A stretch of DNA of 45,379 bases, from IMG/VR virus record IMGVR_UViG_3300020215_000016, positions 1-45,379 of that record; one strand, 5' to 3'. Positions 139-34,122 of this stretch are shown in pieces. The translations under genes and the position numbers were made by a program. How positions within the stretch are numbered: the stretch's first letter is position 1; each line of letters opens with the position of its first letter. The stretch comes from a virus. The notes under the pieces are model-generated. The model was not told where the DNA came from. It did no database searches and worked only from the letters and a program-made list of their open reading frames with translations.

Positions 139-2166
139 ATGTACCTGAGATTGGAACCGCCGCCCCAAGTCCTCGCCGATGCCCAGAAGGAAGTCCGCGA
201 GGTCGAGCAGTATTTCAAAGCCCGCAAGCTCGGCATTGGTAAGGGGAAGCGGGACAAGCTCGACAAGTGGATCAACCGCATGGTTGAGGCGTGGGAGTCT
301 GGCACTCCCGGGCTCCGAAAGGACCTGAAGGAACTCAACGACCTGCTAGAGGGCTTCGGGGAGAATGTTGACTTCCCGTTCGGATCGGGACAGTCCTCAA
401 GCATCGACATCCGCTATGCCGCTGCCAAGGCCCGCACTCTCAGGGCCTCGTTCGTTCAGGCGGTCTTCGCCGACCCAGGTCTCTTGGTTGCTGAGACCCT
501 GCCTGGCGCCCGCCGCGGGCCGCAGGACAACCTTGCCGAAGCCGCCGTCAACTGGACGGCCAGCAAGGAAACCAATGGTATCGAGACGCTGAAGGATACC
601 CCGGTTCCTGCCTTCCGGGACGGCACAGCGTTGGTCTATGGCGAGTGGGAACGCCGGATTGAGCGTGGCGTGGACTACCGCACTTATGAGAGCGTCGAGC
701 AGTTCACGGCCGACTATCCCACCGCGAAGGCCGCGGGCCTGACCAAAGAGAAATACAACGATGTCCTAGACGAGCTCGCCCAGCCTGACGAAGAACTCCA
801 CGTCGAGTTCAGCATGGACTTTGTGGCTCAGAACGGTCCCGCCTACACCATCTTCCCGCTGGCTAAGTTTATCTGGGGACCTCTGTCTGCCAAGGACCTG
901 CGCCTTTCGGCTGAAATCTACGGTTACTACTACACCCAGACAGCTCCGTCATTCGACGCTGCGGTGGCCTACAACTTCTACGACAAAGAGCAGGTCGAGC
1001 AGACCAAGAAGCGGTCAAGCTCTGACGTAGACGAGTGGGAACGTGGGCGGGACACGGTCGAGGGAATCACCAGCGACGAGCAGGACCGCGCCACCTACAA
1101 GATTGCCCGGCTTGTCGTCTCCTACGACTTAGACGACGACGATATCCCCGAGCGGTACATGGTCTACTGGGACATGGAGGGCAAGCGGTCTCTCCGGGTC
1201 GAGCAGTACGGGCTTTGGCGCAACACGCCCTGTATCGTTCCATTCCGACTGCTAAAGCGCGATGACCGCTTCCTTGGCGTCTCTCTTCTGCGCGACGGCC
1301 GGGACTTGTTCAGGGAACTGAATGCGTTACACCGACATCGGTCTAATACCAGGCGGTTGACCGATTCAGTCACCCTCATCATCCCTAAGGCGCTCAAAGA
1401 GGACGTTGACCTCGGAGCTGAGTACGCTGAGTTCAAGCCTGGCATGACGCTTTGGGTTCCCAACGACCTACACCCGGATAAGTACCCCAAGCAGCTACAG
1501 ATATACAACCTCTCGCGTTCGGGCGACAGCGTGGATGAAGAGGGGATGATTGTCCGCTACATCGACGGCCTCATTGGGGTCTCTGAGGGCCAGTCTGGAC
1601 GGGAATCGACAGGGGACCCGAACGCCCCAGCCTCTAAGACTCGGATGCTCCTGGCCCGCGCGGATCTCCGCGTAGAAGACTTGGTCGAGGAGTGGAAGCG
1701 GTCTATCCCTGACTTCGCCGATCTCCATGTGGCCCTCTATCTCGCCAACGCCAAGGCCAAGCTCAAGTTTATGGCCATGCACGGAGGAGAGTTGCGGGAG
1801 AGCGAGGTGGCGACTCAGGTCCTTGCTGACCCTCGCCGACGGTTTGGCCTCAAGGTCAGCCGCAACGTCTCCGCGCCTGAGATGGAGATGAACAAGCTCA
1901 TGGCCTTGGTCGCCGCGGCGTTCCAGCTGAGGTTCCCGGTCATGGCCAAGCCTCAGATGATAATCGAAATCTGGAACGACTACGTCACCGCCTCGCGCAT
2001 CGATCAGCCCGAGCGGTTCATGATCGAGGCCGGCGAGAACGGCCAGGCCACCATGGGCGGTCAGCCGGTTCAGGTGGATCAACTAGGACAACAACTACAG
2101 CAGATGGTCGCGCAGATGGAGATGCAGAAGCGCGGCGTCACATCATCGGGAGGGGCAACTAAGTGA
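139..2166 (+). CDS. Putative portal protein
   Basis: 676 aa. ATG at 139 overlaps the TAA of the junction-spanning ORF (TAATG). It is the large ORF between the terL cluster and the scaffold gene. The call rests on size and position, with no motif confirmed. Confidence 0.6.
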   Translation: MYLRLEPPPQVLADAQKEVREVEQYFKARKLGIGKGKRDKLDKWINRMVEAWESGTPGLRKDLKELNDLLEGFGENVDFPFGSGQSSSIDIRYAAAKARTLRASFVQAVFADPGLLVAETLPGARRGPQDNLAEAAVNWTASKETNGIETLKDTPVPAFRDGTALVYGEWERRIERGVDYRTYESVEQFTADYPTAKAAGLTKEKYNDVLDELAQPDEELHVEFSMDFVAQNGPAYTIFPLAKFIWGPLSAKDLRLSAEIYGYYYTQTAPSFDAAVAYNFYDKEQVEQTKKRSSSDVDEWERGRDTVEGITSDEQDRATYKIARLVVSYDLDDDDIPERYMVYWDMEGKRSLRVEQYGLWRNTPCIVPFRLLKRDDRFLGVSLLRDGRDLFRELNALHRHRSNTRRLTDSVTLIIPKALKEDVDLGAEYAEFKPGMTLWVPNDLHPDKYPKQLQIYNLSRSGDSVDEEGMIVRYIDGLIGVSEGQSGRESTGDPNAPASKTRMLLARADLRVEDLVEEWKRSIPDFADLHVALYLANAKAKLKFMAMHGGELRESEVATQVLADPRRRFGLKVSRNVSAPEMEMNKLMALVAAAFQLRFPVMAKPQMIIEIWNDYVTASRIDQPERFMIEAGENGQATMGGQPVQVDQLGQQLQQMVAQMEMQKRGVTSSGGATK

Positions 2167-26699: not shown

Positions 26700-27082
26700 C
26701 CTGTCCTTACTGTGGCTCTGCGGTGAACATTGTGGATTCCATCGTGATCTACAGGACGCGGAGCTACGGCAAGGCTTGGGTTTGCGCGGCATACCCGAAA
26801 TGTGACGCCTACGTCGGTTGCCATAAGGGAACGGACAAGCCGCTGGGCCGGCTGGCCGACAAGAGCCTGCGCCAGGCCAAATCCAAGGCGCATAAGCTCT
26901 TTGACGCGCTCTGGCGCGAGAAGATCAAGCGGGAGAAGTGCCCCAGGAAGGTCGCCCGCTCCGCTGCCTATCAGTGGCTTGCTGGGCAGCTGGGGATTCA
27001 TGCCGAGGCCTGCCACATCGGAATGTTCGACACGCCGACCTGCGAGAAGGTCGCCTCTCTTTGCGCGAGGTACTTCCGGTGA
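26696..27082 (+). CDS. Zinc-ribbon protein (DUF3268-like)
   Basis: GTGA overlap. Contains CPYCG ... CAAYPKCDAYVGCH. Confidence 0.55.
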   Translation: MTCPYCGSAVNIVDSIVIYRTRSYGKAWVCAAYPKCDAYVGCHKGTDKPLGRLADKSLRQAKSKAHKLFDALWREKIKREKCPRKVARSAAYQWLAGQLGIHAEACHIGMFDTPTCEKVASLCARYFR

Positions 27083-27615
27083 TCCGCAAGGACATGACGC
27101 TCAAGGAGTACATGGCCCGCGCCAAGGCCAAGAAGGCCAACCGGAAGGCCCGCGGCAAGCTGATTTGGTCAGCCAAGCCAAAGCCCAGCCGCAGCGCCGT
27201 GGTCAAGAAGCTGGACGCGGTGTTTAGCCTCTACATCCGCGCTCGTGACAAGCGGGTCGCCAACGGCCTCTGCGTCCTCTGCCGCAAGCGGCCCATTGAG
27301 GTCTGCTTCCACTGGATCTCCCGCGGCGCCTTCGCTACTCGGTGGGATGAAGCCAACTGCGTCGGCTCCTGTTCCGGGTGCAACTACGAGGAGACCTTCC
27401 GCAAGCAGAAGTACCGGGACATGCACATCCAGCTTGTCGGGGTCGAGGTCCGGGAGGCTATGGAGGCTAAGGCGCGGGAGGCGGTCCACATCCCGACCGC
27501 CGAGCTTGAGGCCAAGATCAGGCATTTCAAGGGCTTGCTTGAGTCGGGCCGCCTTTTTTTTAAGGACGGTGTTGCCGATTTGTTACGGCCGGGCGACGAG
27601 GCGGTGACGAAGTGA
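27079..27615 (+). CDS. ninG: NinG/Rap-like recombination protein (alternative start 27094)
   Basis: KKLDAVFSLYIRARDK, CVLCRK, FHWISRG and CSGCN match the lambda NinG family pattern. Confidence 0.7.
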   Translation: MIRKDMTLKEYMARAKAKKANRKARGKLIWSAKPKPSRSAVVKKLDAVFSLYIRARDKRVANGLCVLCRKRPIEVCFHWISRGAFATRWDEANCVGSCSGCNYEETFRKQKYRDMHIQLVGVEVREAMEAKAREAVHIPTAELEAKIRHFKGLLESGRLFFKDGVADLLRPGDEAVTK

Positions 27616-27707
27616 TCCGTTGCTGCCGCCGGGCATTGGAATGGATCGGATTTCATATCTACCGCTGCGTTAGCTGCGGCCAACTCTACGCCAGGAGAAA
27701 GGCGTGA
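27612..27707 (+). CDS. 31-aa Cys-rich peptide
   Basis: GTGA overlaps at both ends. Sequence VIRCCRRALEWIGFHIYRCVSCGQLY... Confidence 0.3.
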   Translation: MIRCCRRALEWIGFHIYRCVSCGQLYARRKA

Positions 27708-28519
27708 GCAAGCCAAAGGAACTCGCGCAGGGAAGGCGCGGGCTGATGGCCCTGCTGCGCGAGGCCGCGCACGGGCACACGCTCTACGACGTCTTCCGCG
27801 ACTTCTGCGAGATGTCGGCCATCGCCGTGAGCAACTCCGTTGACCTGATCCACCGCGCGGAGCGCGAGGTCCGCTACCAGGAGACCGCGAAGCGGTACAA
27901 GCCCGACGTGCTGGCTCTCCTCCCCAAGATGCTCGGATGTCTGGTCGAAGAGCTTGAGATCGGCATGGCTGACGTCCTCGGGCAAGCCTACATGGAGCTG
28001 GAGATTTCGAACAAGAACACCGGTCAATTCTTCACGCCCTATTCGCTATGCAAGATGGTCGCTGAGATGCAGATCGACGACAGCCTGCGCGAGAAGGTGA
28101 AGTCGCAGGGCTTTGTGACGGTGAACGAGCCCGCCTGCGGCGGCGGGGCAATGGTGATCGCTATGGCCGAGGCGATGAGGAATGCGGGTATCGAGCCGCA
28201 GCGCCACATGCACGTCGTAGCCCAGGACGTGGACCCGCGCAGCGTCCACATGACCTACCTCCAGCTTTCGCTCCTACACATCCCGGCCGTCGTCCAGTGC
28301 GGGAACACGCTGACGATGGAGGTCTCCTCAGTCTGGCGGACCCCAGCGCACATCTTCGGGGGGTGGGACTGGAAGCTCCGACGACGCGCAGCAGCGTCCG
28401 CCGACGCCACGGTCCAGATATCCAGCGATCCGGTGCCGCCGGCCGATATCGTCAAGGTGCCCGACGTCGTACTGCCGCCCGCTGGCGAGCAAATCTTCTT
28501 GTTTTCTGAGGCCGCATGA
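27704..28519 (+). CDS. HsdM/N6-adenine-methylase-like protein lacking the catalytic NPPF/Y motif
   Basis: It has NTGQFFTP, the AdoMet motif NEPACGGG, AQDVDP and CGNTL. Where NPPF is expected it reads PAHIFGGWDWKL. Confidence 0.65.
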   Translation: MSKPKELAQGRRGLMALLREAAHGHTLYDVFRDFCEMSAIAVSNSVDLIHRAEREVRYQETAKRYKPDVLALLPKMLGCLVEELEIGMADVLGQAYMELEISNKNTGQFFTPYSLCKMVAEMQIDDSLREKVKSQGFVTVNEPACGGGAMVIAMAEAMRNAGIEPQRHMHVVAQDVDPRSVHMTYLQLSLLHIPAVVQCGNTLTMEVSSVWRTPAHIFGGWDWKLRRRAAASADATVQISSDPVPPADIVKVPDVVLPPAGEQIFLFSEAA

Positions 28520-28665
28520 AATCCCAAAAGGTCTTGAAGCACCAAAATGAACGCTGGCCCGTCTTCGAGCTTGGCAAACCGCGCCGCATCGTCACGCGAT
28601 GCCGGGCTTGCGGCGCCGACCGCGAGAAGCATGGCCCGGCGTGCTTGGGGAGGGAGACTAGGTGA
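28516..28665 (+). CDS. 49-aa protein with a CxxC motif
   Basis: ATGA and GTGA overlaps. Contains TRCRACGADREKHGPAC. Confidence 0.35.
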   Translation: MKSQKVLKHQNERWPVFELGKPRRIVTRCRACGADREKHGPACLGRETR

Positions 28666-29183
28666 GCGACGAGATAGACCACATGATTGAACGAATCGAC
28701 CGGGGCGAGGACTTCAAGGTCAATTCGGCTCTAGCCTTCGCCATTGTGGGCCGAAGACTACAGATGTCCAATGGCGAGCTATCCAAGGTTCGGGTGGCGA
28801 TGGGGGAGATCAAAAGGATAGCCGACGCGATCATGCGCCGCGACCCGAAGTACCTGCGCCCAGGGCTTGAAGACACCGACATGAATGGAGCGTGGGGAGG
28901 TGTCAGGTACTACGCCGAATCCGCCCTCCCCGCCGCGGATGCGGGCAACATCGACGGGCAATCAAGCGGACCTTGGGACTGGTTGCGCGGAAAGCTCTCC
29001 GCAGAAGACTTCCAGCGGCTTTCATATCAAGTTGGATGCGTTGCTATCCGCAATCGTGCCGAGGGACGAGATGAGGTCAAGCCCGAGGATCGCGTCTACG
29101 ACAAGCCCTGCTACTGCCGCGAGAACAAGGGCCAGGAAGGCGGGCACATCCACGCATCGCAGCCAGCATCGGAGGCACCTTAA
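28662..29183 (+). CDS. Hypothetical protein
   Basis: 173 aa, coupled at both ends. Confidence 0.6.
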   Translation: MSDEIDHMIERIDRGEDFKVNSALAFAIVGRRLQMSNGELSKVRVAMGEIKRIADAIMRRDPKYLRPGLEDTDMNGAWGGVRYYAESALPAADAGNIDGQSSGPWDWLRGKLSAEDFQRLSYQVGCVAIRNRAEGRDEVKPEDRVYDKPCYCRENKGQEGGHIHASQPASEAP

Positions 29184-29350
29184 TGGCCTACGCGAGCAAG
29201 GTAGTCCGCGCCGTTGCTAAGGCTATCGTCGAGGTTCAGACGTCACGGGATCATGAGGCTTGCCGAGTTCCTGCTTTCTGCGAAGCCCGGGCGGCGATCC
29301 GCGCCTACCTCAAGGCGTCGAAGCCCAAGCCCGATACGGAGGGAGCGTGA
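29183..29350 (+). CDS. 55-aa hypothetical protein ending KPKPDTEGA
   Basis: TAATG and GTGA overlaps. Its 3' end is the 30-nt junction repeat. Confidence 0.4.
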   Translation: MAYASKVVRAVAKAIVEVQTSRDHEACRVPAFCEARAAIRAYLKASKPKPDTEGA

Positions 29351-29634
29351 GAGCGGAAATCAAACGTATTCGGGAGCGCGCCTTTAGAGCGTATGTGGTT
29401 ATTGATACGCCATCGTCGCGGCAGGGATTCAAGGACGAAGCCGTTAATTGCGTATTCGTGTTGCTTTCGGAAATCGAAGAACTTGAAGGCAGGCTGGCGA
29501 AGATGAACAAGGAGAAGCCGCAGCAAGACTACGGCGAGGCCCCAAAATCGTGCTACTGCGCGGCAACAAAAGCCCCGTGCGGATGGTGCGAGTCGCAGCC
29601 CTCCCCCGCCGAGGGCAAGGAAGCCAAGCCGTGA
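29347..29634 (+). CDS. Hypothetical protein with a C-terminal CxC...CxxC
   Basis: GTG start inside the junction repeat (ggaggga RBS). 95 aa. Confidence 0.5.
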   Translation: MRAEIKRIRERAFRAYVVIDTPSSRQGFKDEAVNCVFVLLSEIEELEGRLAKMNKEKPQQDYGEAPKSCYCAATKAPCGWCESQPSPAEGKEAKP

Positions 29635-29648
29635 ACACTTGCCCCGGC

Positions 29649-29813
29649 CTACAAGTCCAACAGATCGGTGTACGCCTCTCGCAGGCGTTGCCGAAGGACT
29701 GCGGGGCCGTGAACGGTGCGGTTCCAGCCGCCCAGGATCTCGCCGACCGCCTTCTTCAGGGCCGTGATGACCTTGGCGCGTTGTCCGTCAGGGTCGCAAT
29801 GCTGGCAGGTCAT
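29649..29813 (-). CDS. 54-aa leftward protein (MTCQHCDPDGQRAKVITALKKAVGEILGG...)
   Basis: High-GC3 ORF below the track cut-off. TATACT lies 6 nt upstream of the ATG and there is no SD, so the mRNA may be leaderless. Confidence 0.45.
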   Translation of the reverse strand: MTCQHCDPDGQRAKVITALKKAVGEILGGWNRTVHGPAVLRQRLREAYTDLLDL

Positions 29814-29902
29814 GCCGAGAGTATATCGAACAGGAAGGAGTGCCGCTCATGAAACTCACCGCCGCCGCCATCCTCACATATGGGGTTCAGGGATAGCGTG
29901 AC

Positions 29903-31033
29903 GTGGGTACACCTACCGCCATCAGCCTGTTCTCGGGAGCCGGGGGCCTCGATCTTGCCGCCCGATGGGCTGGCATCCGCACCGTGTGCTATGTCGAGCG
30001 AGAGTCCTACGCCCAAGCCGTCCTCATGTCCAACTTCCGGCGCGGCTGGCTCGATGAGGCCCCTATCTGGGATGACGTCTGCACCTTTAAAGGCAAGCCC
30101 TGGCGAGGAGTTGACGTTGTTTTCGGCGGGTTTCCATGCCAGGACGTCAGCTATGCCGGGAGAGGGCGTGGGCTCAGGAAGGGAACAAGATCAGGCCTCT
30201 GGATTCAATACGCCCGAATCATTCGCGAGGTACGACCGCGCGTCGTCATCGTGGAGAATGTTCCCGGCCTTATGCGACGTGGCCTTGCCCGAGTCCTCGG
30301 AGATTTGGCCGCGGCGGGGTACGATGCGCGATGGGAAGTTGTATCGGCTGCCAGCGTTGGAGCCCCCCACAAGCGAGAGCGGATCTTCATCGTGGCCCAC
30401 GCCCGACACGCAGAATCATCGGGACGGCTCGTGTCGGCGAGCCGAGACGAAGGGCAAGCACAATCTGAGCCTGCATCATGCGGCAGCGATGTGGCCGACG
30501 TGGCAGACGCCCAAGGCCTCGGACGGCTCAAAACCGAGCGGCGGCGGGCGCTCCGACAGCAGCCTACCCCAGCAGGTAAAGAACTGGCCGACTCCCCGAG
30601 CGAACGACGCCGAGAAGCGCGGGGAGATCAGCAACGATCCCAGGAACGGACTCCCAGCAGCGGCGAAGAACTGGCCCAGTCCTACTGCCCGCGATGCCAA
30701 AGGCGCGGATGCTCCGGGCCGGCGAGGAGCGCCGAGCTTGAGTCAGACAACCGAATTTGGCCCGCCCGCCCCGGAGAAGAACAGTTTTGCTGGGAGCCGT
30801 CGCGGCTTACTCAACCCAGCGTGGGTCGAGGCTCTAATGGGCTGGCCGATCGGCTTCACGGAACTGGACGACCAAGCGGAGAAGTGGTGGATGATTCAGC
30901 GAGCGGGGGCAAGGCGGTTGCTGCGGAAGCGCAAGTCCGCTGGCGCGTCCACCGGCTCAAAGCGACGGGCAACGGCGTCAGCCCGCAGCAGGCGCTCAAA
31001 ATCTTCCGTGAAGCCCGCGAGGCCCTAGGATGA
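29903..31033 (+). CDS. DNA (cytosine-5)-methyltransferase, with conserved motifs split between two overlapping open frames
   Basis: Frame A carries LFSGAGGLD, GGFPCQDVS, IVENVPGL, APHKRERIFIVA and the C-terminal RLKATGNGVSPQ. The target-recognition-like WPTP repeats and LNPAWVEALMGWPIGFT lie in frame B (29880..31028). Confidence 0.7.
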   Translation: MGTPTAISLFSGAGGLDLAARWAGIRTVCYVERESYAQAVLMSNFRRGWLDEAPIWDDVCTFKGKPWRGVDVVFGGFPCQDVSYAGRGRGLRKGTRSGLWIQYARIIREVRPRVVIVENVPGLMRRGLARVLGDLAAAGYDARWEVVSAASVGAPHKRERIFIVAHARHAESSGRLVSASRDEGQAQSEPASCGSDVADVADAQGLGRLKTERRRALRQQPTPAGKELADSPSERRREARGDQQRSQERTPSSGEELAQSYCPRCQRRGCSGPARSAELESDNRIWPARPGEEQFCWEPSRLTQPSVGRGSNGLADRLHGTGRPSGEVVDDSASGGKAVAAEAQVRWRVHRLKATGNGVSPQQALKIFREAREALG

Positions 31034-31035
31034 CC

Positions 31036-31248
31036 CTATTTCTTAGCCCGCTGCTTCTTCCCCGCCCGATGCTTTGCGGAGTCCTTCCTGTTTTGTGCGC
31101 GGGCGGCGTCCGGGTGACTCTTACGCCACTTCCTGACGTAGTCGCGGGTGCGGCACTTGGCCGAGAAGTATTTGGGCGCGGGAATAGTGGCTGGCTTTCC
31201 GCAGCCGCAAGCGCAGAGCATGGCGTAAGTATAGCCCGAGTCTTTCAC
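31036..31248 (-). CDS. Small basic Cys-rich protein (likely start 31221, possibly leaderless)
   Basis: Sequence MLCACGCGKPATIPAPKYFSAKCRTRDY... with a Lys/Arg-rich tail. The ATG at 31221 lies 6 nt after a TATACT -10 element. Confidence 0.55.
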   Translation of the reverse strand: MKDSGYTYAMLCACGCGKPATIPAPKYFSAKCRTRDYVRKWRKSHPDAARAQNRKDSAKHRAGKKQRAKK

Positions 31249-31256
31249 GGCGTCAA
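31228..31256 (-). promoter_or_regulatory. Leftward promoter TTGACG-17 nt-TATACT
   Basis: Reverse complement of cgtcaa (31251-31256) and agtata (31228-31233). It shares the 12-mer GCTATACTTACG with the rightward promoter. Confidence 0.55.
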
Positions 31257-31277
31257 TGTCGAGGGCAAGAGCAGGTC

Positions 31278-31305
31278 TTGACGTAAGTAAGATATATGCT
31301 ATACT
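31278..31305 (+). promoter_or_regulatory. Rightward promoter TTGACG-16 nt-TATACT overlapped by a palindrome
   Basis: ttgacg at 31278-31283 and tatact at 31300-31305. ACGTAAGTA (31281-31289) and TACTTACGT (31302-31310) form a 9-bp inverted repeat. Confidence 0.6.
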
Positions 31306-31405
31306 TACGTTGCGAGGGAGGTAAAGGTTTCAGGCCGCTGGCAAAAACTCCCTCGCAGGATGGATGCCAGCGGCCTCTTATTTAGACGGGAATGCGAGGG
31401 AGAAA

Positions 31406-31558
31406 ATGAAAAACAAGCAGAGCAGCAAGCCCGCCGTCACTAAGGAAGCGCCCGCCGCGATCGTCCTGTACGACGGCTGCTATTCCGACGGGAGCAACTG
31501 CGAGACGTTCCCGGCTTGCAATCACGAGGCGAAGAAGCCGCCGCAGGGAGGGCGCTGA
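31406..31558 (+). CDS. 50-aa hypothetical protein
   Basis: RBS gagggag. It is the first ORF after the rightward promoter. Confidence 0.45.
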   Translation: MKNKQSSKPAVTKEAPAAIVLYDGCYSDGSNCETFPACNHEAKKPPQGGR

Positions 31559-31559
31559 C

Positions 31560-31763
31560 ATGGCGAACAAGCTGACCCCGAGCGAAGCAAAGGCCCTGGA
31601 CCTTGTAAAGGATGGGGCCGACGTCTACGACTACGGCATCGCCCTGACCCTTCGGGCTCTTGAGAAGCGAGGCCTCGTCACAATCACCAGGGCCATGAGC
31701 CGACCGGATGGCCGCAAGCAGCAGCCGTACTTCGGGGCCATTGTTCGCAAGGAGCCCCGCTGA
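31560..31763 (+). CDS. Small winged-helix-like protein
   Basis: 67 aa. Contains LTLRALEKRGLVTI. Confidence 0.5.
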   Translation: MANKLTPSEAKALDLVKDGADVYDYGIALTLRALEKRGLVTITRAMSRPDGRKQQPYFGAIVRKEPR

Positions 31764-31764
31764 G

Positions 31765-31884
31765 ATGCCCCGCCTAGTCCTGAGCGCCGGCATGTGGGAC
31801 GCCGTAATTCGCGCCTGGGGAGTCAGCGAAGACTTCATGCGCGGGCATTTCTTGAAGGCCGATCCGGTACAGGAGCAACGCTAA
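31765..31884 (+). CDS. 39-aa hypothetical protein
   Basis: Starts 2 nt after the previous stop. TAATG overlap downstream. Confidence 0.3.
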   Translation: MPRLVLSAGMWDAVIRAWGVSEDFMRGHFLKADPVQEQR

Positions 31885-32243
31885 TGGCCCGCAAAGACTG
31901 GGTCTGGATGGGACGCCCCGCGCACTTCATCTGTGCCGAGCGCTGTCACTTTCGGCTTGCGACCTACATCCCGGCAAGCCGCGTGATCGTCTCGACTGTT
32001 GGTGACTACGAGCCGCCAGCCATGCTGGGCATGAAACGACCTGCTGAAATCGGATATGGGCGCACCTACGAGACTTTTGTTTTCAAGGCCATACGCGTTA
32101 AAGACTGCGACGGCTGCGAGTACCACATAATTCCGTCCGAGATAGACACGCTGCCCGCGAACACGGCAAACAAAGCGACCAAGAACCATTACGCGCTCTG
32201 TGGAAAGTGGGACCGCAAGAGAAACGTCAAGGAGCCCCTCTGA
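31884..32243 (+). CDS. Hypothetical protein
   Basis: 119 aa from MARKDWVWMG, coupled at both ends. Confidence 0.55.
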   Translation: MARKDWVWMGRPAHFICAERCHFRLATYIPASRVIVSTVGDYEPPAMLGMKRPAEIGYGRTYETFVFKAIRVKDCDGCEYHIIPSEIDTLPANTANKATKNHYALCGKWDRKRNVKEPL

Positions 32244-32413
32244 TGCCTGCCAAGAAGAAGTCCCGTGCCGCCTCACGCTTGGTTCTCAAGAGCGAGATTT
32301 GCAAGGCGCTGATGAGCAAGCGGTCTCGGTGGGTGTTTGTCCGCAATGAGCTAGAGGAGATGGCTGGGTTTGTGGCGGCGCATTTGAGCAGGAAGATGGC
32401 GGCGGGAGCATGA
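32243..32413 (+). CDS. 56-aa hypothetical protein
   Basis: TGATG overlap upstream and ATGA overlap downstream. Confidence 0.4.
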   Translation: MPAKKKSRAASRLVLKSEICKALMSKRSRWVFVRNELEEMAGFVAAHLSRKMAAGA

Positions 32414-32811
32414 AGCACTCACCTGAGCCGTGGGATGACGACGAGAAGCACCCGGACCCGACGTGCGTGAATATCGGCTACCTGAACGACGCCAACGGCA
32501 GCAGTGTCGGCACCTTCTACTTGGACAATGGGCGAGAGAACGCCGCGCGGGTGAAAGCCTGCGTAAACGCTCTGGCGGGCGTTGAGGACCCGGCTGATTG
32601 GGTAGACAGCATGAAGGCGATGCTCGGATCAACCAAGAGAGAGCAGGGCGAGTGGGTCTGCGAACTCGTCGAGGCGGCGAAGGCTGTATTCGATGAAGAC
32701 GTCAGGGCCGGGATCGCTGACAACTCAAAAGGCGTTATGGCCCGCGTCGATAAGCTGCGTCCTCTTGCCGCCGCCATCAAGAAGTTCGACCCGGAATGGA
32801 GGGGATCATGA
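32410..32811 (+). CDS. Hypothetical protein
   Basis: 133 aa with ATGA overlaps. Confidence 0.6.
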   Translation: MKHSPEPWDDDEKHPDPTCVNIGYLNDANGSSVGTFYLDNGRENAARVKACVNALAGVEDPADWVDSMKAMLGSTKREQGEWVCELVEAAKAVFDEDVRAGIADNSKGVMARVDKLRPLAAAIKKFDPEWRGS

Positions 32812-32963
32812 ACGAACACACCTACTTCGACCGCATCCTAGATGCCTGCGAGGAGGCTGAGGAGAAGCTGCTACGAGCGGAATACATGGCCTTCCTCGGT
32901 GACGCCATCGTGGAGCTTGAGAGCCGGCTGGCCGTAGCGAAGGCGAAGAAGGAGACTACATGA
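32808..32963 (+). CDS. 51-aa hypothetical protein
   Basis: ATGA overlaps at both ends. Confidence 0.4.
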   Translation: MNEHTYFDRILDACEEAEEKLLRAEYMAFLGDAIVELESRLAVAKAKKETT

Positions 32964-33148
32964 AACCCCTCACCGACTGGACCCCCGAAGAAGTCCTAGC
33001 CGATCCGACGGCCTCTGACTGGCTCAAGAACGCGCTGAGGTCGGCTATCGAGCGCGACCCCGTGGACGCCGCAGACGATGCCGAGGCTTTGGCTCAACTC
33101 CTGCGCGGGCACATGATGAGGGCGGCGCGAGAGGCGAGGAACGTCTAA
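32960..33148 (+). CDS. Hypothetical protein
   Basis: 62 aa, coupled to its neighbours. Confidence 0.5.
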   Translation: MKPLTDWTPEEVLADPTASDWLKNALRSAIERDPVDAADDAEALAQLLRGHMMRAAREARNV

Positions 33149-33396
33149 TGCCGACCAAGGACGACGACGGGCCTGCGTTCGGTCATGGTGATCCGACGCA
33201 TGGCGGCGCCCACGGTATATCCCTGCGCGAATACTTCGCGGCAAACGCTGACGTGCCGTGGAACTCGGTCATGGAAACCCTAAGAATCAACGGGAACGCA
33301 TCCCCGACGATCCAAGAAGTTGTCGACTTCCGAGCAAGAATCAAGTTCCGCGAGGCCGACGCCATGCTGAAGGCTCGCAAAATGGACCATCCTTGA
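33148..33396 (+). CDS. Hypothetical protein
   Basis: TAATG overlap. 82 aa. Confidence 0.55.
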   Translation: MPTKDDDGPAFGHGDPTHGGAHGISLREYFAANADVPWNSVMETLRINGNASPTIQEVVDFRARIKFREADAMLKARKMDHP

Positions 33397-33581
33397 CCCT
33401 CAAGCGCCACCGCATCATCGAGTCCGCGCCGCTGCCTTACCCATCGTGCGGCTGCTGCCATTCGAAGGTGGACGTGGTGAAGATGGAAGTTACTTGGCGG
33501 TGTCGCTGTCATGATAATGAATGGAGATGTATTGCCTGCTGCCGGTGCAGCCTCCATTGCTGTCGGAATAAAAATGGATAA
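33393..33581 (+). CDS. Extremely Cys-rich 62-aa ORF (start codon uncertain)
   Basis: TTGA overlap. Contains SCGCCHSK...WRCRCHDNEWRCIACCRCSLHCC (13 Cys). Lies in a low-GC stretch. Confidence 0.3.
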   Translation: MTLKRHRIIESAPLPYPSCGCCHSKVDVVKMEVTWRCRCHDNEWRCIACCRCSLHCCRNKNG

Positions 33582-34122
33582 AACAAAAGATCGCGACACG
33601 TTCATCTGCGCCTACTGCAAAGGTGTTTTTCCTGTTCTTCGGAATCCAAGAATAACATGCAGCATGAGGTGCAAAATGGCCGACCTAGCAAAGAATCGAC
33701 CGTCCCGTTATGGCGTTGCGCTGAAAACATTTTGGGAGCGGGTTAGGAAAACAGATTCTTGCTGGATTTGGACTGGCGGGAGGGATGGCCGCGGATACGG
33801 GCGCATTGGGCCGGTAGGTGCATTAAAAGAGGACTATGCCCATCGGCATTCTTATCGAATTCATAAGGGTGAGATACCACACGGCTTGGCCATCGACCAT
33901 CTTTGTCAGAACAAATGGTGCGTAAACCCAAACCATCTTGAGGCCGTAACTCAGACTGAAAACACTAGGCGGTGGCGAGTCACCGTATCGGCCTGCAAGC
34001 GCGGGCATCAGAGAACGAAAGAGAACACATATACACGCCCTTCTAATGGCTCGACATCATGTATCCCGTGCATTAAGTTGAGGCGGCTCTGCTACTCCGT
34101 CGGCGCGAGGCTGCAACCTTGA
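33574..34122 (+). CDS. HNH homing-type endonuclease
   Basis: CWIWTGG ... YAHRHSY ... IDHLCQNKWCVNPNHLEAVTQTENTRR is an HNH_3-like pattern. Local G+C is clearly lower than in the flanks. Confidence 0.75.
   Translation: MDKTKDRDTFICAYCKGVFPVLRNPRITCSMRCKMADLAKNRPSRYGVALKTFWERVRKTDSCWIWTGGRDGRGYGRIGPVGALKEDYAHRHSYRIHKGEIPHGLAIDHLCQNKWCVNPNHLEAVTQTENTRRWRVTVSACKRGHQRTKENTYTRPSNGSTSCIPCIKLRRLCYSVGARLQP

What the first reader, a model, noticed from the sequence alone, without database searches (positions are those of the whole stretch)
29849..31033. Cytosine-5 methyltransferase locus with two overlapping frames open for 1.15 kb and conserved motifs alternating between them
Frame A (29903..31033) carries the C5-MTase motifs I (LFSGAGGLD), IV (GGFPCQDVS), VI (IVENVPGL) and VIII (APHKRERIFIVA) at its N-terminus, and motif X (RLKATGNGVSPQ) at its extreme C-terminus. 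Its middle ~180 codons are Arg/Ser/Glu-rich with nothing recognisable. Frame B (29880..31028, shifted by +1) is open over the same DNA. Its middle encodes four WPTP-type repeats (WPTPDTQNHRDG, MWPTWQTPKASDG, NWPTPRANDAEKRG, NWPSPTARDAKG) plus LNPAWVEALMGWPIGFT (30807-30863). I recognise these as the target-recognition and motif IX region of a phage C5-MTase family. A canonical enzyme would therefore need an A-to-B shift at or before 30393 and a B-to-A shift between 30864 and 30943. Over 30270-30400 both frames look protein-like at once: frame A reads GYDARWEVVSAASVGAPHKRERIFIVA and frame B reads IWPRRGTMRDGKLYRLPALEPPTSESGSSSWPTP. No other spurious same-strand alternative-frame ORF in the track exceeds about 140 codons, so a 380-codon stop-free second frame is an outlier. 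In addition, an ATG at 29849 with a strong SD (aggaaggag) is in frame A but is cut by a TAG at 29894, two codons before the GTG start. Possible explanations are two assembly indels, a decaying pseudogene, programmed recoding, or genuine dual coding.
Basis: partly seen in the sequence, partly recalled or inferred. Interest (0 to 1): 0.85.

Follow-up and report, generated by a model that had tools for sequence, protein, structure and literature searches.

The report
Two-subunit cytosine methylase from overlapping genes
This phage encodes the two halves of a DNA cytosine methyltransferase on the same 1.1 kb of DNA read in two different frames, an arrangement that recurs in 59 of 75 related viral loci and 70 of 72 bacterial genome loci examined and is maintained by selection, so it is real dual coding rather than a sequencing error.

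Summary
ORF A (29903-31033) and ORF B (+1 frame, open 29880-31028) are both stop-free over 376 shared codons. The next largest same-strand overlap in the window is 155-160 codons.

It is neither an assembly artefact nor a pseudogene. A second assembly record is 100% identical. The nearest relative (56% identity) and about 130 of 147 analysable viral and bacterial loci (GC 46-74%) have the same layout: motifs I-VIII and X in one frame, WPTP repeats and motif IX in the +1 frame.

Synonymous-permutation tests show both frames are kept open. Beta is stop-free over I-VIII in 44/53 and 55/57 loci (4.0 and 6.5 expected). Alpha is stop-free over TRD-IX in 50/53 and 53/57 loci (2.6 expected in each).

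Codon-phase variability switches A to B to A. Alpha synonymous sites are frozen wherever a beta residue is conserved, for example Gly GGG in 56/57 loci.

Start codons for the two frames lie 4-5 nt apart (family 'RTGAATG'; here GTG 29898 and GTG 29903). No slippery sites were found.

Best reading: a heterodimeric C5-methyltransferase like M.EcoHK31I. Alpha is the catalytic domain plus motif X. Beta is the recognition domain plus motif IX. The difference is almost complete gene overlap, as the norm for a very large phage family. I found no paper describing this.

The parts
29903..31033 (+). alpha ORF (376 aa, GTG start, TGA stop overlapping the ATG of the next ORF at 31030). It contains the C5-MTase catalytic/AdoMet domain (motifs I-VIII), a roughly 155-aa predicted-disordered segment, and the motif X helix.
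   Evidence: ORF list. PF00145 E 1e-37 on aa 6-211. TIGR00675. phrog_363 over aa 2-373. AF2 pLDDT is 91-98 for aa 1-170, 33-50 for aa 180-330 and 95-96 for aa 355-376. Foldseek top hits are M.HaeIII and M.HhaI at E 1e-15. The start is assigned by homology with L085 ATG 633.
29898..31028 (+). beta ORF in the +1 frame (376 aa if started at GTG 29898; the frame is open from 29853, and an ATG lies at 29880). It has a predicted-disordered N-terminal part, two conserved hairpins, WPTP-type repeats, motif IX and a basic tail.
   Evidence: ORF list. At least 822 called homologues. phrog_1008 over aa 62-324. 49,708 cluster representatives match the profile. The start is inferred from L085 'ATGACATGGGTA' against the window's 'GTGACGTGGGTA'. 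AF2 result.
29927..29953 (+). alpha motif I (LFSGAGGLD, AdoMet binding)
   Evidence: aligned to M.HhaI motif I
30125..30151 (+). alpha motif IV (GGFPCQDVS, catalytic Cys)
30248..30271 (+). alpha motif VI (IVENVPGL). The same DNA encodes beta SSSWRMF.
30362..30397 (+). alpha motif VIII (APHKRERIFIVA). Selection switches from frame A to frame B just after it.
30228..30347 (+). beta residues 111-150 (SSSWRMF...EIWPRRGTMRDGKLYRL). This segment is doubly constrained, because it also encodes alpha motif VI to the GYDARW region.
   Evidence: Family-wide freezing of alpha synonymous sites: GGG 56/57, GCC 55/57, GTG 55/57, AAC 55/57, CGA 54/57. AF2 predicts hairpins at 111-120 and 141-150 with pLDDT 82-84.
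30393..30704 (+). beta WPTP-type repeats (four copies), the presumed target-recognition region
   Evidence: Differences from L085 concentrate at beta codon position 3, with 72% amino-acid identity.
30807..30860 (+). beta motif IX-like segment (LLNPAWVEALMGWPIGFT)
   Evidence: Invariant or nearly invariant columns. Beta position 3 is the most variable. The motif IX assignment rests on pattern only; HMMs do not reach it.
30953..30988 (+). alpha motif X (RLKATGNGVSPQ)
   Evidence: R351, G356, N357 and V360 are nearly invariant. Alpha position 3 is again the most variable. AF2 predicts helix 361-375 with pLDDT 95.
30428..30892 (+). alpha 'shadow' linker (Arg/Ser/Glu-rich, predicted disordered). 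It is the alpha-frame reading of the beta TRD/IX DNA and is kept free of stops.
   Evidence: AF2. Permutation test P = 0.001 in the window, 50/53 and 53/57 loci stop-free in relatives.
29849..29896 (+). 15-codon mini-ORF with a strong SD (aggaaggag, 29832-29840). It ends at a TAG 2 nt before the beta GTG and 7 nt before the alpha GTG. It may be a coupling or leader ORF (inferred).
   Evidence: In L085 the stop of the upstream gene overlaps the beta ATG (ATGA).

Best explanation
The locus encodes a two-subunit DNA (cytosine-5) methyltransferase from two almost co-extensive genes on the same strand, offset by one nucleotide. Alpha (29903-31033) supplies the catalytic/AdoMet-binding domain. It runs through motifs I-VIII, then a disordered stretch that is simply the alpha-frame reading of the beta gene, then motif X, which folds back onto the catalytic domain. 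Beta (29898-31028, +1 frame) supplies the DNA-recognition small domain: two conserved hairpins, WPTP repeats and motif IX. Ribosomes choose between two start codons 5 nt apart. In most relatives the starts are 4 nt apart behind one Shine-Dalgarno sequence. In this window initiation is probably by re-initiation after the 15-codon upstream mini-ORF. The two polypeptides then assemble into the active enzyme, as shown experimentally for M.EcoHK31I and M.AquI. In the phage the enzyme presumably methylates phage DNA to evade host restriction. What is shown: the layout, its conservation, selection against stops in both frames, the switch of amino-acid-level selection A to B to A, simultaneous constraint on both frames around motifs VI-VIII, and paired start codons. 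What is inferred: actual translation of both products, their assembly, the role of the mini-ORF, and the biological role.
For: (1) Not an artefact. An ENA assembly record is 100% identical over 7131 nt. (2) The nearest relative, L085 (56% alpha identity), has the same two ORFs and the same paired starts. (3) Across 80 viral and 80 genome loci from many phyla (GC 46-74%), motifs I, IV, VI, VIII and X lie in the beta-1 frame relative to motif IX in almost all loci. Both ORFs are open for 270-400 codons while the third frame carries 6-34 stops. (4) Synonymous-permutation tests: the beta frame is stop-free over alpha I-VIII in 44/53 (4.0 expected) and 55/57 (6.5 expected) loci. The alpha frame is stop-free over beta TRD-IX in 50/53 and 53/57 loci (2.6 expected in each). 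(5) Codon-phase entropy: alpha position 3 is the most variable over I-VIII, beta position 3 over TRD and IX, and alpha position 3 again at X. The same switch is seen in the window versus L085. (6) Alpha synonymous sites are frozen exactly where beta residues are conserved, and adjacent Asp codons are fixed as GAT then GAC. Neither codon bias nor stop avoidance explains this. (7) The beta start is conserved. The Asn codon is AAT in 55/55 loci of the main subfamily, which creates the beta ATG 4 nt after the alpha start. Nested beta starts in Goose and Bloom are preceded by SD-like strings. (8) AF2 gives alpha as a confident Rossmann domain plus C-terminal helix with a disordered middle, and gives beta structured only in the hairpins and the IX region. 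(9) Precedent: M.EcoHK31I beta is encoded within alpha in another frame and both chains are required (PMC2836561; PMC3404938). (10) GenBank annotators already call both genes in Paenibacillus and Mycobacterium phages, and PHROGs holds separate alpha and beta families.
Against: No direct evidence of translation or of methylation for this locus or any family member was available. Assignment of motifs IX and X rests on pattern resemblance and conservation. PF00145 and phmmer against PDB do not extend beyond motif VIII, even on an artificially spliced A-B-A protein. For the window alone, openness of the beta frame over the first 150 codons is only marginally unusual (P = 0.073). Both inferred start codons are GTG with a weak SD, so the beta start is uncertain. 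The first 105 or so beta residues are predicted disordered, which makes their translation look wasteful. The locus shows no adjacent restriction endonuclease, unlike EcoHK31I.
Confidence: 0.8

Rival explanations
1. Programmed ribosomal frameshifting. Ribosomes start in frame A, shift +1 near 30393 and shift -1 between 30864 and 30950, giving one canonical single-chain methyltransferase.
For: The order of conserved segments (I-VIII in A, TRD-IX in B, X in A) is what a single chain would need. Selection switches frames at exactly those junctions.
Against: There is no conserved nucleotide string at the A-to-B junction in 57 loci; entropies are 1.3-1.9 bits at all three positions after motif VIII. 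The window has no stop or rare-codon +1 site and no X_XXY_YYZ heptamer. Frameshifting would not require the unused parts of either frame to stay open, yet they do. It would not require a conserved beta-frame ATG next to the alpha start. In Goose-type relatives the alpha stop lies after the first LPTP of beta, so a shift at that stop would skip a conserved beta motif. Two efficient opposite-direction shifts in one gene have no precedent known to me.
Confidence: 0.07
2. Same two-subunit enzyme, but beta is translated only from an internal start (nested gene, as in Paenibacillus phage Bloom, Goose or EcoHK31I). The open beta frame upstream would then be incidental in this window.
For: For the window, P(no stop) in the N-terminal part is only 0.073. 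Beta residues 1-105 are predicted disordered. Internal ATGs exist (beta M at the SGMT position and others). Some subfamilies do use internal starts.
Against: Across relatives the beta frame is open from the alpha start far more often than expected (44/53 and 55/57). The nearest relative keeps ATG at the homologous 5' position. Frozen alpha synonymous sites also occur in the far N-terminal part: GAT/GAC at the beta GMT position and TTT in 55/57 loci.
Confidence: 0.12
3. Two compensating assembly or sequencing indels, or a decaying pseudogene of a single-frame gene.
For: Real single-nucleotide shifts do occur in some family members: L009 before motif IX, P0027 after motif IV, and L008, L032, L053 and L056 after motif I near G-runs.
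Against: A second assembly record has an identical sequence. The same two junctions recur in about 130 independent loci, including finished isolate genomes. Purifying selection continues in both frames. No stops have accumulated.
Confidence: 0.01

Closest known systems
M.EcoHK31I (E. coli HK31; Lee, Kam and Shaw 1995, as described in PMC2836561 and PMC3404938)
   Same: It is a C5-MTase made of two polypeptides encoded on the same DNA in different reading frames. Alpha carries motifs I-VIII and X, beta carries motif IX, and both are needed for activity. The beta N-terminus matters for association with alpha.
   Different: There, beta is a small chain nested inside the alpha variable region, and the TRD is assigned to alpha. 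Here beta is as long as alpha (376 aa), starts next to the alpha start, and carries the repeat region that is under selection between VIII and IX. EcoHK31I belongs to a restriction-modification pair, whereas this is a phage gene with no adjacent nuclease seen. I could not obtain the EcoHK31I sequence, so sequence-level kinship is untested.
M.AquI (Agmenellum quadruplicatum; Karreman and de Waard 1990, as described in PMC3404938)
   Same: It is a natural two-subunit C5-MTase split in the variable region between VIII and IX. Relatives of this locus (Mycobacterium phage Goose gp80/gp79, L005, L021, Paraburkholderia prophages) have this split, with X in the beta frame and alpha ending after VIII.
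   Different: In the window, motif X is back in the alpha frame and the two genes overlap over their whole length, not only at the ends.
Monomeric bacterial C5-MTases (M.HhaI, M.HaeIII; PF00145)
   Same: The alpha N-terminal 170 aa match in sequence and predicted fold, with catalytic PCQ, ENV and RxR motifs.
   Different: Those are a single chain in a single frame. Here the small domain is a separate product read from the +1 frame.
Long same-strand overlapping genes of viruses (for example phiX174 A/B/K, tymovirus replicase/p69; review PMC8227390)
   Same: There are two proteins from one DNA stretch, with depletion of stops in the second frame and asymmetric constraint along the overlap.
   Different: Here both products are parts of one ancient enzyme rather than an old gene plus a de novo accessory protein. 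The overlap is about 1.1 kb in a dsDNA phage, and it is conserved across bacterial phyla.

Membership tests
DNA (cytosine-5) methyltransferase superfamily (PF00145 / TIGR00675) | Motif I FxGxGG AdoMet-binding loop | tested here: met
   LFSGAGG in alpha. PF00145 E 1e-37. Aligned to M.HhaI.
DNA (cytosine-5) methyltransferase superfamily (PF00145 / TIGR00675) | Motif IV PCQ catalytic cysteine, motif VI ENV, motif VIII QxRxR | tested here: met
   GFPCQDVS, VENV and PHKRER in alpha, aligned to the M.HhaI equivalents. Invariant in 48 homologues.
DNA (cytosine-5) methyltransferase superfamily (PF00145 / TIGR00675) | Motifs IX and X recognisable by family models | tested here: inconclusive
   PF00145 and phmmer against PDB stop at motif VIII, even on the spliced A-B-A sequence. 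The pattern LxPxxxxxxMG[WY]P in beta and GNGV in alpha resemble M.HhaI IX and X (my knowledge of the M.HhaI sequence). Both are strongly conserved.
DNA (cytosine-5) methyltransferase superfamily (PF00145 / TIGR00675) | Large-domain Rossmann fold | tested here: met
   AF2 pLDDT above 90 for aa 1-170. Foldseek hits 1dct and 1fjx at E 1e-15, rmsd 1.7-2.6 A.
DNA (cytosine-5) methyltransferase superfamily (PF00145 / TIGR00675) | 5-methylcytosine-forming activity | not testable with these tools
   Needs bisulfite/EM-seq or restriction-protection assays.
EcoHK31I-type heterodimeric C5-MTase encoded by overlapping frames | Two ORFs on the same strand in different frames over the same DNA | tested here: met
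   Alpha is 29903-31033 and beta is 29898/29880-31028, +1 frame. Conserved in relatives.
EcoHK31I-type heterodimeric C5-MTase encoded by overlapping frames | Alpha holds motifs I-VIII and X; beta holds motif IX | tested here: met
   Motif frames (IX and X assigned by pattern).
EcoHK31I-type heterodimeric C5-MTase encoded by overlapping frames | TRD located in alpha; beta a small chain nested in the alpha variable region | tested here: not met
   The segment under amino-acid selection between VIII and IX is in the beta frame. Beta is as long as alpha and starts 5 nt before it.
EcoHK31I-type heterodimeric C5-MTase encoded by overlapping frames | Both polypeptides made and both required for activity | not testable with these tools
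   Only indirect evidence: stop avoidance and purifying selection in both frames.
EcoHK31I-type heterodimeric C5-MTase encoded by overlapping frames | Sequence homology to M.EcoHK31I alpha/beta | not tested
AquI-type split C5-MTase | Alpha ends after motif VIII; beta carries IX and X | tested here: not met
   In the window X is in the alpha frame and alpha runs on to 31033. The feature is met in relatives Goose, L005, L021, L088, L089 and L095.
Programmed ribosomal frameshift genes | Conserved slippery or shift site at the frame junction, with the zero-frame ending soon after | tested here: not met
   No conserved junction nucleotides. No heptamer or stop-associated site. The zero frame stays open for about 210 more codons.

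The most novel reading that the evidence does not exclude
This locus is one member of a very large, cross-phylum family of phage and prophage C5-methyltransferases (about 50,000 clusters at 50% identity match the beta profile). In this family the two subunits are normally encoded by almost completely overlapping genes (270-400 codons, +1 offset) with paired start codons sharing one ribosome-binding site. Both frames are under simultaneous purifying selection around motifs VI-VIII. That would make it one of the longest and most widespread same-strand dual-coding arrangements known in prokaryotic viruses. It would be an ancient enzyme split across frames rather than a de novo overprinted accessory gene. 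Standard pipelines annotate only one of the two genes, or call the locus frameshifted.
Probability: 0.7. Interest if true: 0.85.

Novelty: new variant of a known kind. Interest (0 to 1): 0.8.

Why it matters
If both products are made, several things follow.

- Annotation: gene callers and curated model libraries miss or mislabel half of a common phage enzyme. NCBIfam and Pfam have no beta model. One caller reported only alpha for this contig and another only beta.
- Overlapping-gene evolution: the family offers a large natural data set, with thousands of diverged sequences, for studying how two functional proteins evolve on one stretch of DNA. That includes a segment where both frames are constrained at once.
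- Expression control: it suggests a simple way to fix subunit stoichiometry, by start-codon choice behind a single ribosome-binding site.
- Enzyme engineering: it provides many natural split C5-methyltransferases, the kind of scaffold used for targeted-methylation tools built on M.EcoHK31I.
- Earlier literature: it raises the question of whether the 'TRD in alpha' assignment for EcoHK31I is itself a frame shadow.

Tried and rejected
- Pfam and NCBIfam on frame B gave no hits. A profile of 70 beta homologues against PDB sequences gave nothing meaningful.
- An artificially spliced A-B-A protein was run against Pfam and PDB to see whether family models would then cover motifs IX and X. They did not, so that test of motif identity was uninformative.
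- L009 first looked like a single-frame relative. It is a family member with an extra 1-nt indel before motif IX. P0027 looked like a single chain with PF00145 plus WPTP, but it is a hybrid ORF caused by an indel after motif IV. P0067 looked like a stand-alone beta, but its contig carries the overlapping alpha.
- I first read the conserved strings in the beta N-terminal half as independent motifs. Then I saw that FHARTS, RYDRxSSSWR and WPxxGTMRDG are +1 readings of alpha motifs IV, VI and the GDL..GYD..W region. Only the synonymous-site analysis showed that part of this is real constraint on beta.
- Literature searches for a prior description of the family-wide arrangement found nothing relevant. 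The original EcoHK31I paper is not held.
- AF2 on beta alone gave a low-confidence model (pLDDT 57), so no fold search was run on it.
Full report
**What is in the sequence.** The window carries two same-strand ORFs over almost the same DNA. ORF A is 29903..31033 (GTG, 376 aa). ORF B is 29880..31028 (ATG, 382 aa), and B is the +1 frame of A.

Frame A carries C5-methyltransferase motifs I, IV, VI and VIII in its first 165 residues and a GNGV motif X near its end. Pfam PF00145 matches residues 6-211 only (E 1e-37). Frame B has no Pfam or NCBIfam hit. It does carry four WPTP-type repeats (30393-30704) and LLNPAWVEALMGWPIGFT (30807-30860).

The two frames share 376 stop-free codons. The next largest same-strand double-open stretches in the window are 155 and 160 codons.

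The window is a temperate phage genome. It has an integrase, a large terminase, a head protein, NinG and a second (N6) methyltransferase.

**Not an artefact and not a pseudogene.** An ENA assembly record (L084) is 100% identical to window 26903-34033. On the same sequence one gene caller reported alpha (P0121) and another reported beta (P0001).

The nearest relative found is L085, with 56% alpha identity. It has the same pair of ORFs.

In the window-versus-L085 comparison, the first 150 alpha codons are 69% identical, with differences concentrated at alpha codon position 3. The beta repeat/IX segment is 72% identical, with differences concentrated at beta position 3. Purifying selection has therefore acted on frame A in the N-terminal part and on frame B in the middle, in this lineage.

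**The layout is family-wide.** Distant phages showed it at once.
- Pseudomonas phage VB_PaD_phPA-G has ORFs 1352..2071 and 1356..2084.
- Mycobacterium phage Goose has gp80 and gp79 overlapping by 182 nt.
- Paenibacillus phage Bloom has BLOOM_57 nested in BLOOM_56, both annotated as cytosine methyltransferase.

I then fetched 80 viral loci and 80 genome loci using a beta alignment. The genome loci come from Paraburkholderia, Acinetobacter, Pseudomonas, Paenibacillus, Leptospira, Thiobacillus, Azotobacter, Myxococcota, Dehalococcoidia, Planctomycetota, Verrucomicrobiota, Actinomycetes and others.

In nearly all loci, motifs I, IV, VI and VIII lie in the frame one nucleotide behind motif IX, and motif X is back in that alpha frame. 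Both ORFs are open for 270-400 codons in loci of 46-74% GC, while the third frame carries 6-34 stops.

A minority have X in the beta frame and alpha ending after VIII. These are Goose, L005, L021 and the Paraburkholderia prophages, and this is the M.AquI arrangement.

A profile of 70 beta proteins matches 49,708 representatives of 50%-identity clusters (36,804 at E <= 1e-10). Most are aligned from residue 1. PHROGs already holds separate alpha (phrog_363) and beta (phrog_1008) families, both labelled DNA methyltransferase.

**Selection keeps both frames open.** For each locus I permuted synonymous codons of the frame that is visibly coding in a segment, then counted stops in the other frame (1000 permutations per locus).

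| Segment and frame tested | Viral set: stop-free loci (expected) | Genome set: stop-free loci (expected) |
|---|---|---|
| Beta frame over alpha motifs I-VIII | 44/53 (4.0) | 55/57 (6.5) |
| Alpha frame over beta repeats to IX | 50/53 (2.6) | 53/57 (2.6) |

For the alpha-frame test, the exceptions are the AquI-like loci, plus L098 in the genome set.

For the window itself the probabilities of zero stops are 0.073 (beta over I-VIII) and 0.001 (alpha over TRD-IX). A frameshifting model does not need the unused parts of either frame to stay open. A two-product model does.

**Which frame is constrained where.** I built a codon alignment of 57 loci with less than 85% identity.
- Over motifs I-VIII, the most variable nucleotide position is alpha position 3.
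- Over the repeats and motif IX, it is beta position 3. There alpha position 3 has only 0.17-0.35 bits.
- At motif X, it is alpha position 3 again.

Many conserved strings in the N-terminal half of beta are simply +1 readings of alpha motifs. FHARTS is the shadow of GFPCQDVS, RYDRxSSSWR of REVRPRVVIVEN, and WPxxGTMRDG of LGDLxxxGYDARW.

Not all of it is shadow, however. At alpha residues that are themselves conserved, specific synonymous sites are frozen in exactly the state that conserves a beta residue:
- Gly GGG in 56/57 loci (beta G of WPRWG)
- Ala GCC in 55/57 (beta P)
- Val GTG in 55/57 (beta W of SSW)
- Asn AAC in 55/57 (beta T)
- Arg CGA in 54/57 (beta D)
- two adjacent Asp codons fixed as GAT (50/57) then GAC (50/57), which gives beta G-M-T

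Other four-fold sites in the same alignment reach 1.7-1.9 bits. None of the alternative bases at these frozen sites would create a stop. Neither stop avoidance nor codon bias explains the pattern.

The DNA around alpha motifs VI-VIII (window about 30228-30347) is therefore doubly coding with both proteins under selection.

**Start codons.** In the main subfamily the start region reads RTGAATGAG. The alpha start is ATG, GTG or TTG, followed by AAT GAG. The beta ATG lies 4 nt downstream, immediately after a beta-frame TGA. The Asn codon is AAT in 55/55 loci, never AAC, even at high GC. The same GTGAATG pair occurs in the LDLFSGIGG subfamily.

In the window's subfamily, L085 reads ATGACATGGGTA, with beta ATG and alpha ATG 5 nt apart. 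The window reads GTGACGTGGGTA. I therefore place the beta start at GTG 29898 and the alpha start at GTG 29903, which gives 376 aa for each.

Where beta is nested, as in Goose and Bloom, SD-like strings lie inside alpha just upstream of the beta ATG.

In the window a 15-codon mini-ORF (29849-29896) with a strong SD ends at a TAG 2 nt before the beta GTG. In L085 the upstream gene's TGA overlaps the beta ATG. Termination-reinitiation feeding both starts is my inference. It is not shown.

**Structure.** AF2 with 48 homologues predicts alpha as a confident Rossmann domain (pLDDT 91-98 for aa 1-170). The middle is disordered (33-50 for aa 180-330). A confident C-terminal helix carries motif X (95-96). 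Foldseek puts M.HaeIII and M.HhaI on top (E 1e-15).

Beta alone is mostly low confidence (mean pLDDT 57). The exceptions are two hairpins at residues 111-120 and 141-150 (82-84) and the motif IX region (72-87). Residues 1-105 are predicted disordered. The hairpins coincide with the doubly constrained segment.

This fits a picture in which alpha is the large domain with a loop replacing the small domain, and beta is the small domain that folds on its partner or on DNA. It remains a prediction.

**Frameshifting as a rival.** No conserved nucleotide string marks either junction. The window has no slippery heptamer and no stop or rare-codon +1 site. In Goose the alpha stop lies after the first LPTP of beta, so shifting at that stop would skip a conserved beta motif. 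I give programmed recoding about 7%.

[quoted passage not shown] Alpha holds motifs I-VIII, X and the predicted TRD, beta holds motif IX, and both are required (PMC2836561; PMC3404938). M.AquI is split between VIII and IX, with IX-X in beta.

The present locus works like EcoHK31I in principle but differs in several ways. Beta is as long as alpha. It starts beside the alpha start. It carries the selected repeat region between VIII and IX. The arrangement is the norm for a huge phage-borne family, and no restriction enzyme is adjacent.

I could not test sequence homology to EcoHK31I because the sequence and the original paper were unavailable.

Searches of the held literature found no description of the family-wide arrangement. 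The Paenibacillus phage paper merely lists two methyltransferase genes. Reviews of frameshifting and of overlapping viral genes do not mention it.

**Caveats.**
- There is no expression or methylation data.
- Motifs IX and X are assigned by pattern and conservation, not by a family model.
- The beta start in this window is inferred.
- The loci analysed were selected by a motif IX pattern, so variants lacking it were not sampled.
- The sequences are phylogenetically related. However, at 30-45% identity, and with third-frame stops abundant, shared ancestry cannot explain the absence of stops.

**Verdict.** The locus is a genuine dual-coding, two-subunit cytosine methyltransferase of the EcoHK31I kind, in an extreme and apparently undescribed family-wide form. 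My confidence in the two-product reading is about 0.8.

Noticed in passing
window 29832-29905: A 15-codon mini-ORF (ATG 29849, TAG 29894-29896) sits behind a strong SD (aggaaggag). It ends 2 nt before the inferred beta start GTG 29898 and 7 nt before the alpha start GTG 29903. In the nearest relative, L085, the upstream gene's stop overlaps the beta ATG (ATGA). Both alpha and beta may be initiated by re-initiation.
   Followed up: partly
window 29631-29852 (+) versus 29649-29813 (-): The ENA gene caller places a + strand gene here whose TGA overlaps the mini-ORF ATG. The - strand ORF (54 aa, MTCQHCDPDG...) looks more protein-like. Which one is real decides whether the methyltransferase heads a divergent transcript.
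   Followed up: no
window 31030-31033: The alpha stop TGA overlaps the ATG of the next ORF (31030..31281) as ATGA. The beta stop TAG (31026-31028) lies 1 nt before that ATG. The downstream gene could therefore be translationally coupled to either product.
   Followed up: no
window 27704-28519: There is a second DNA methyltransferase gene in the same phage, of N6 type (PF02384 in the ENA record). It matches phrog_5696 at E 8e-75, two kb upstream of the C5 locus.
   Followed up: no
L008, L032, L053, L056 (about 50 nt after motif I): Four viral loci carry a 1-nt shift just after motif I. In L008 and L032 it lies in a G8/G9 tract where relatives have GGGGGGCAC. The alpha start then reads into the beta body. 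This could be sequencing error, pseudogenes or slippage-prone tracts.
   Followed up: partly
L009 2284-3243; P0027: These family members have a genuine extra indel (before motif IX, and after motif IV) that fuses alpha and beta segments into one ORF. They show what a real frameshift error looks like in this family. They also explain occasional 'single-chain' database entries.
   Followed up: yes
family alignment, motif IX / motif X region (for example L004-L083, about +0 to +80 nt from motif IX): In the compact subfamily the same DNA encodes beta LNPxWVEWLMGWPIGWTDLKPLEM and alpha EPxVGRVAxGVxxRVDRLKxIGNGQVP. The familiar 'RVAxGVPxRVDRLxxLGNAVVPQ' C-terminus of short phage C5-methyltransferases is thus partly the frame shadow of motif IX. 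In the window the two are about 30 codons apart.
   Followed up: partly
L001 (Goose), L005, L021, L088, L089, L095: This is a variant architecture in which alpha stops shortly after motif VIII and motif X lies in the beta frame (M.AquI-like). In L005 and L021 beta is still open from the alpha start.
   Followed up: partly
L125, L145 (MAG contigs labelled Methanoregula and Woesearchaeota): The same two-frame locus occurs on short contigs binned into archaeal MAGs. This could be archaeal viruses or binning contamination.
   Followed up: no
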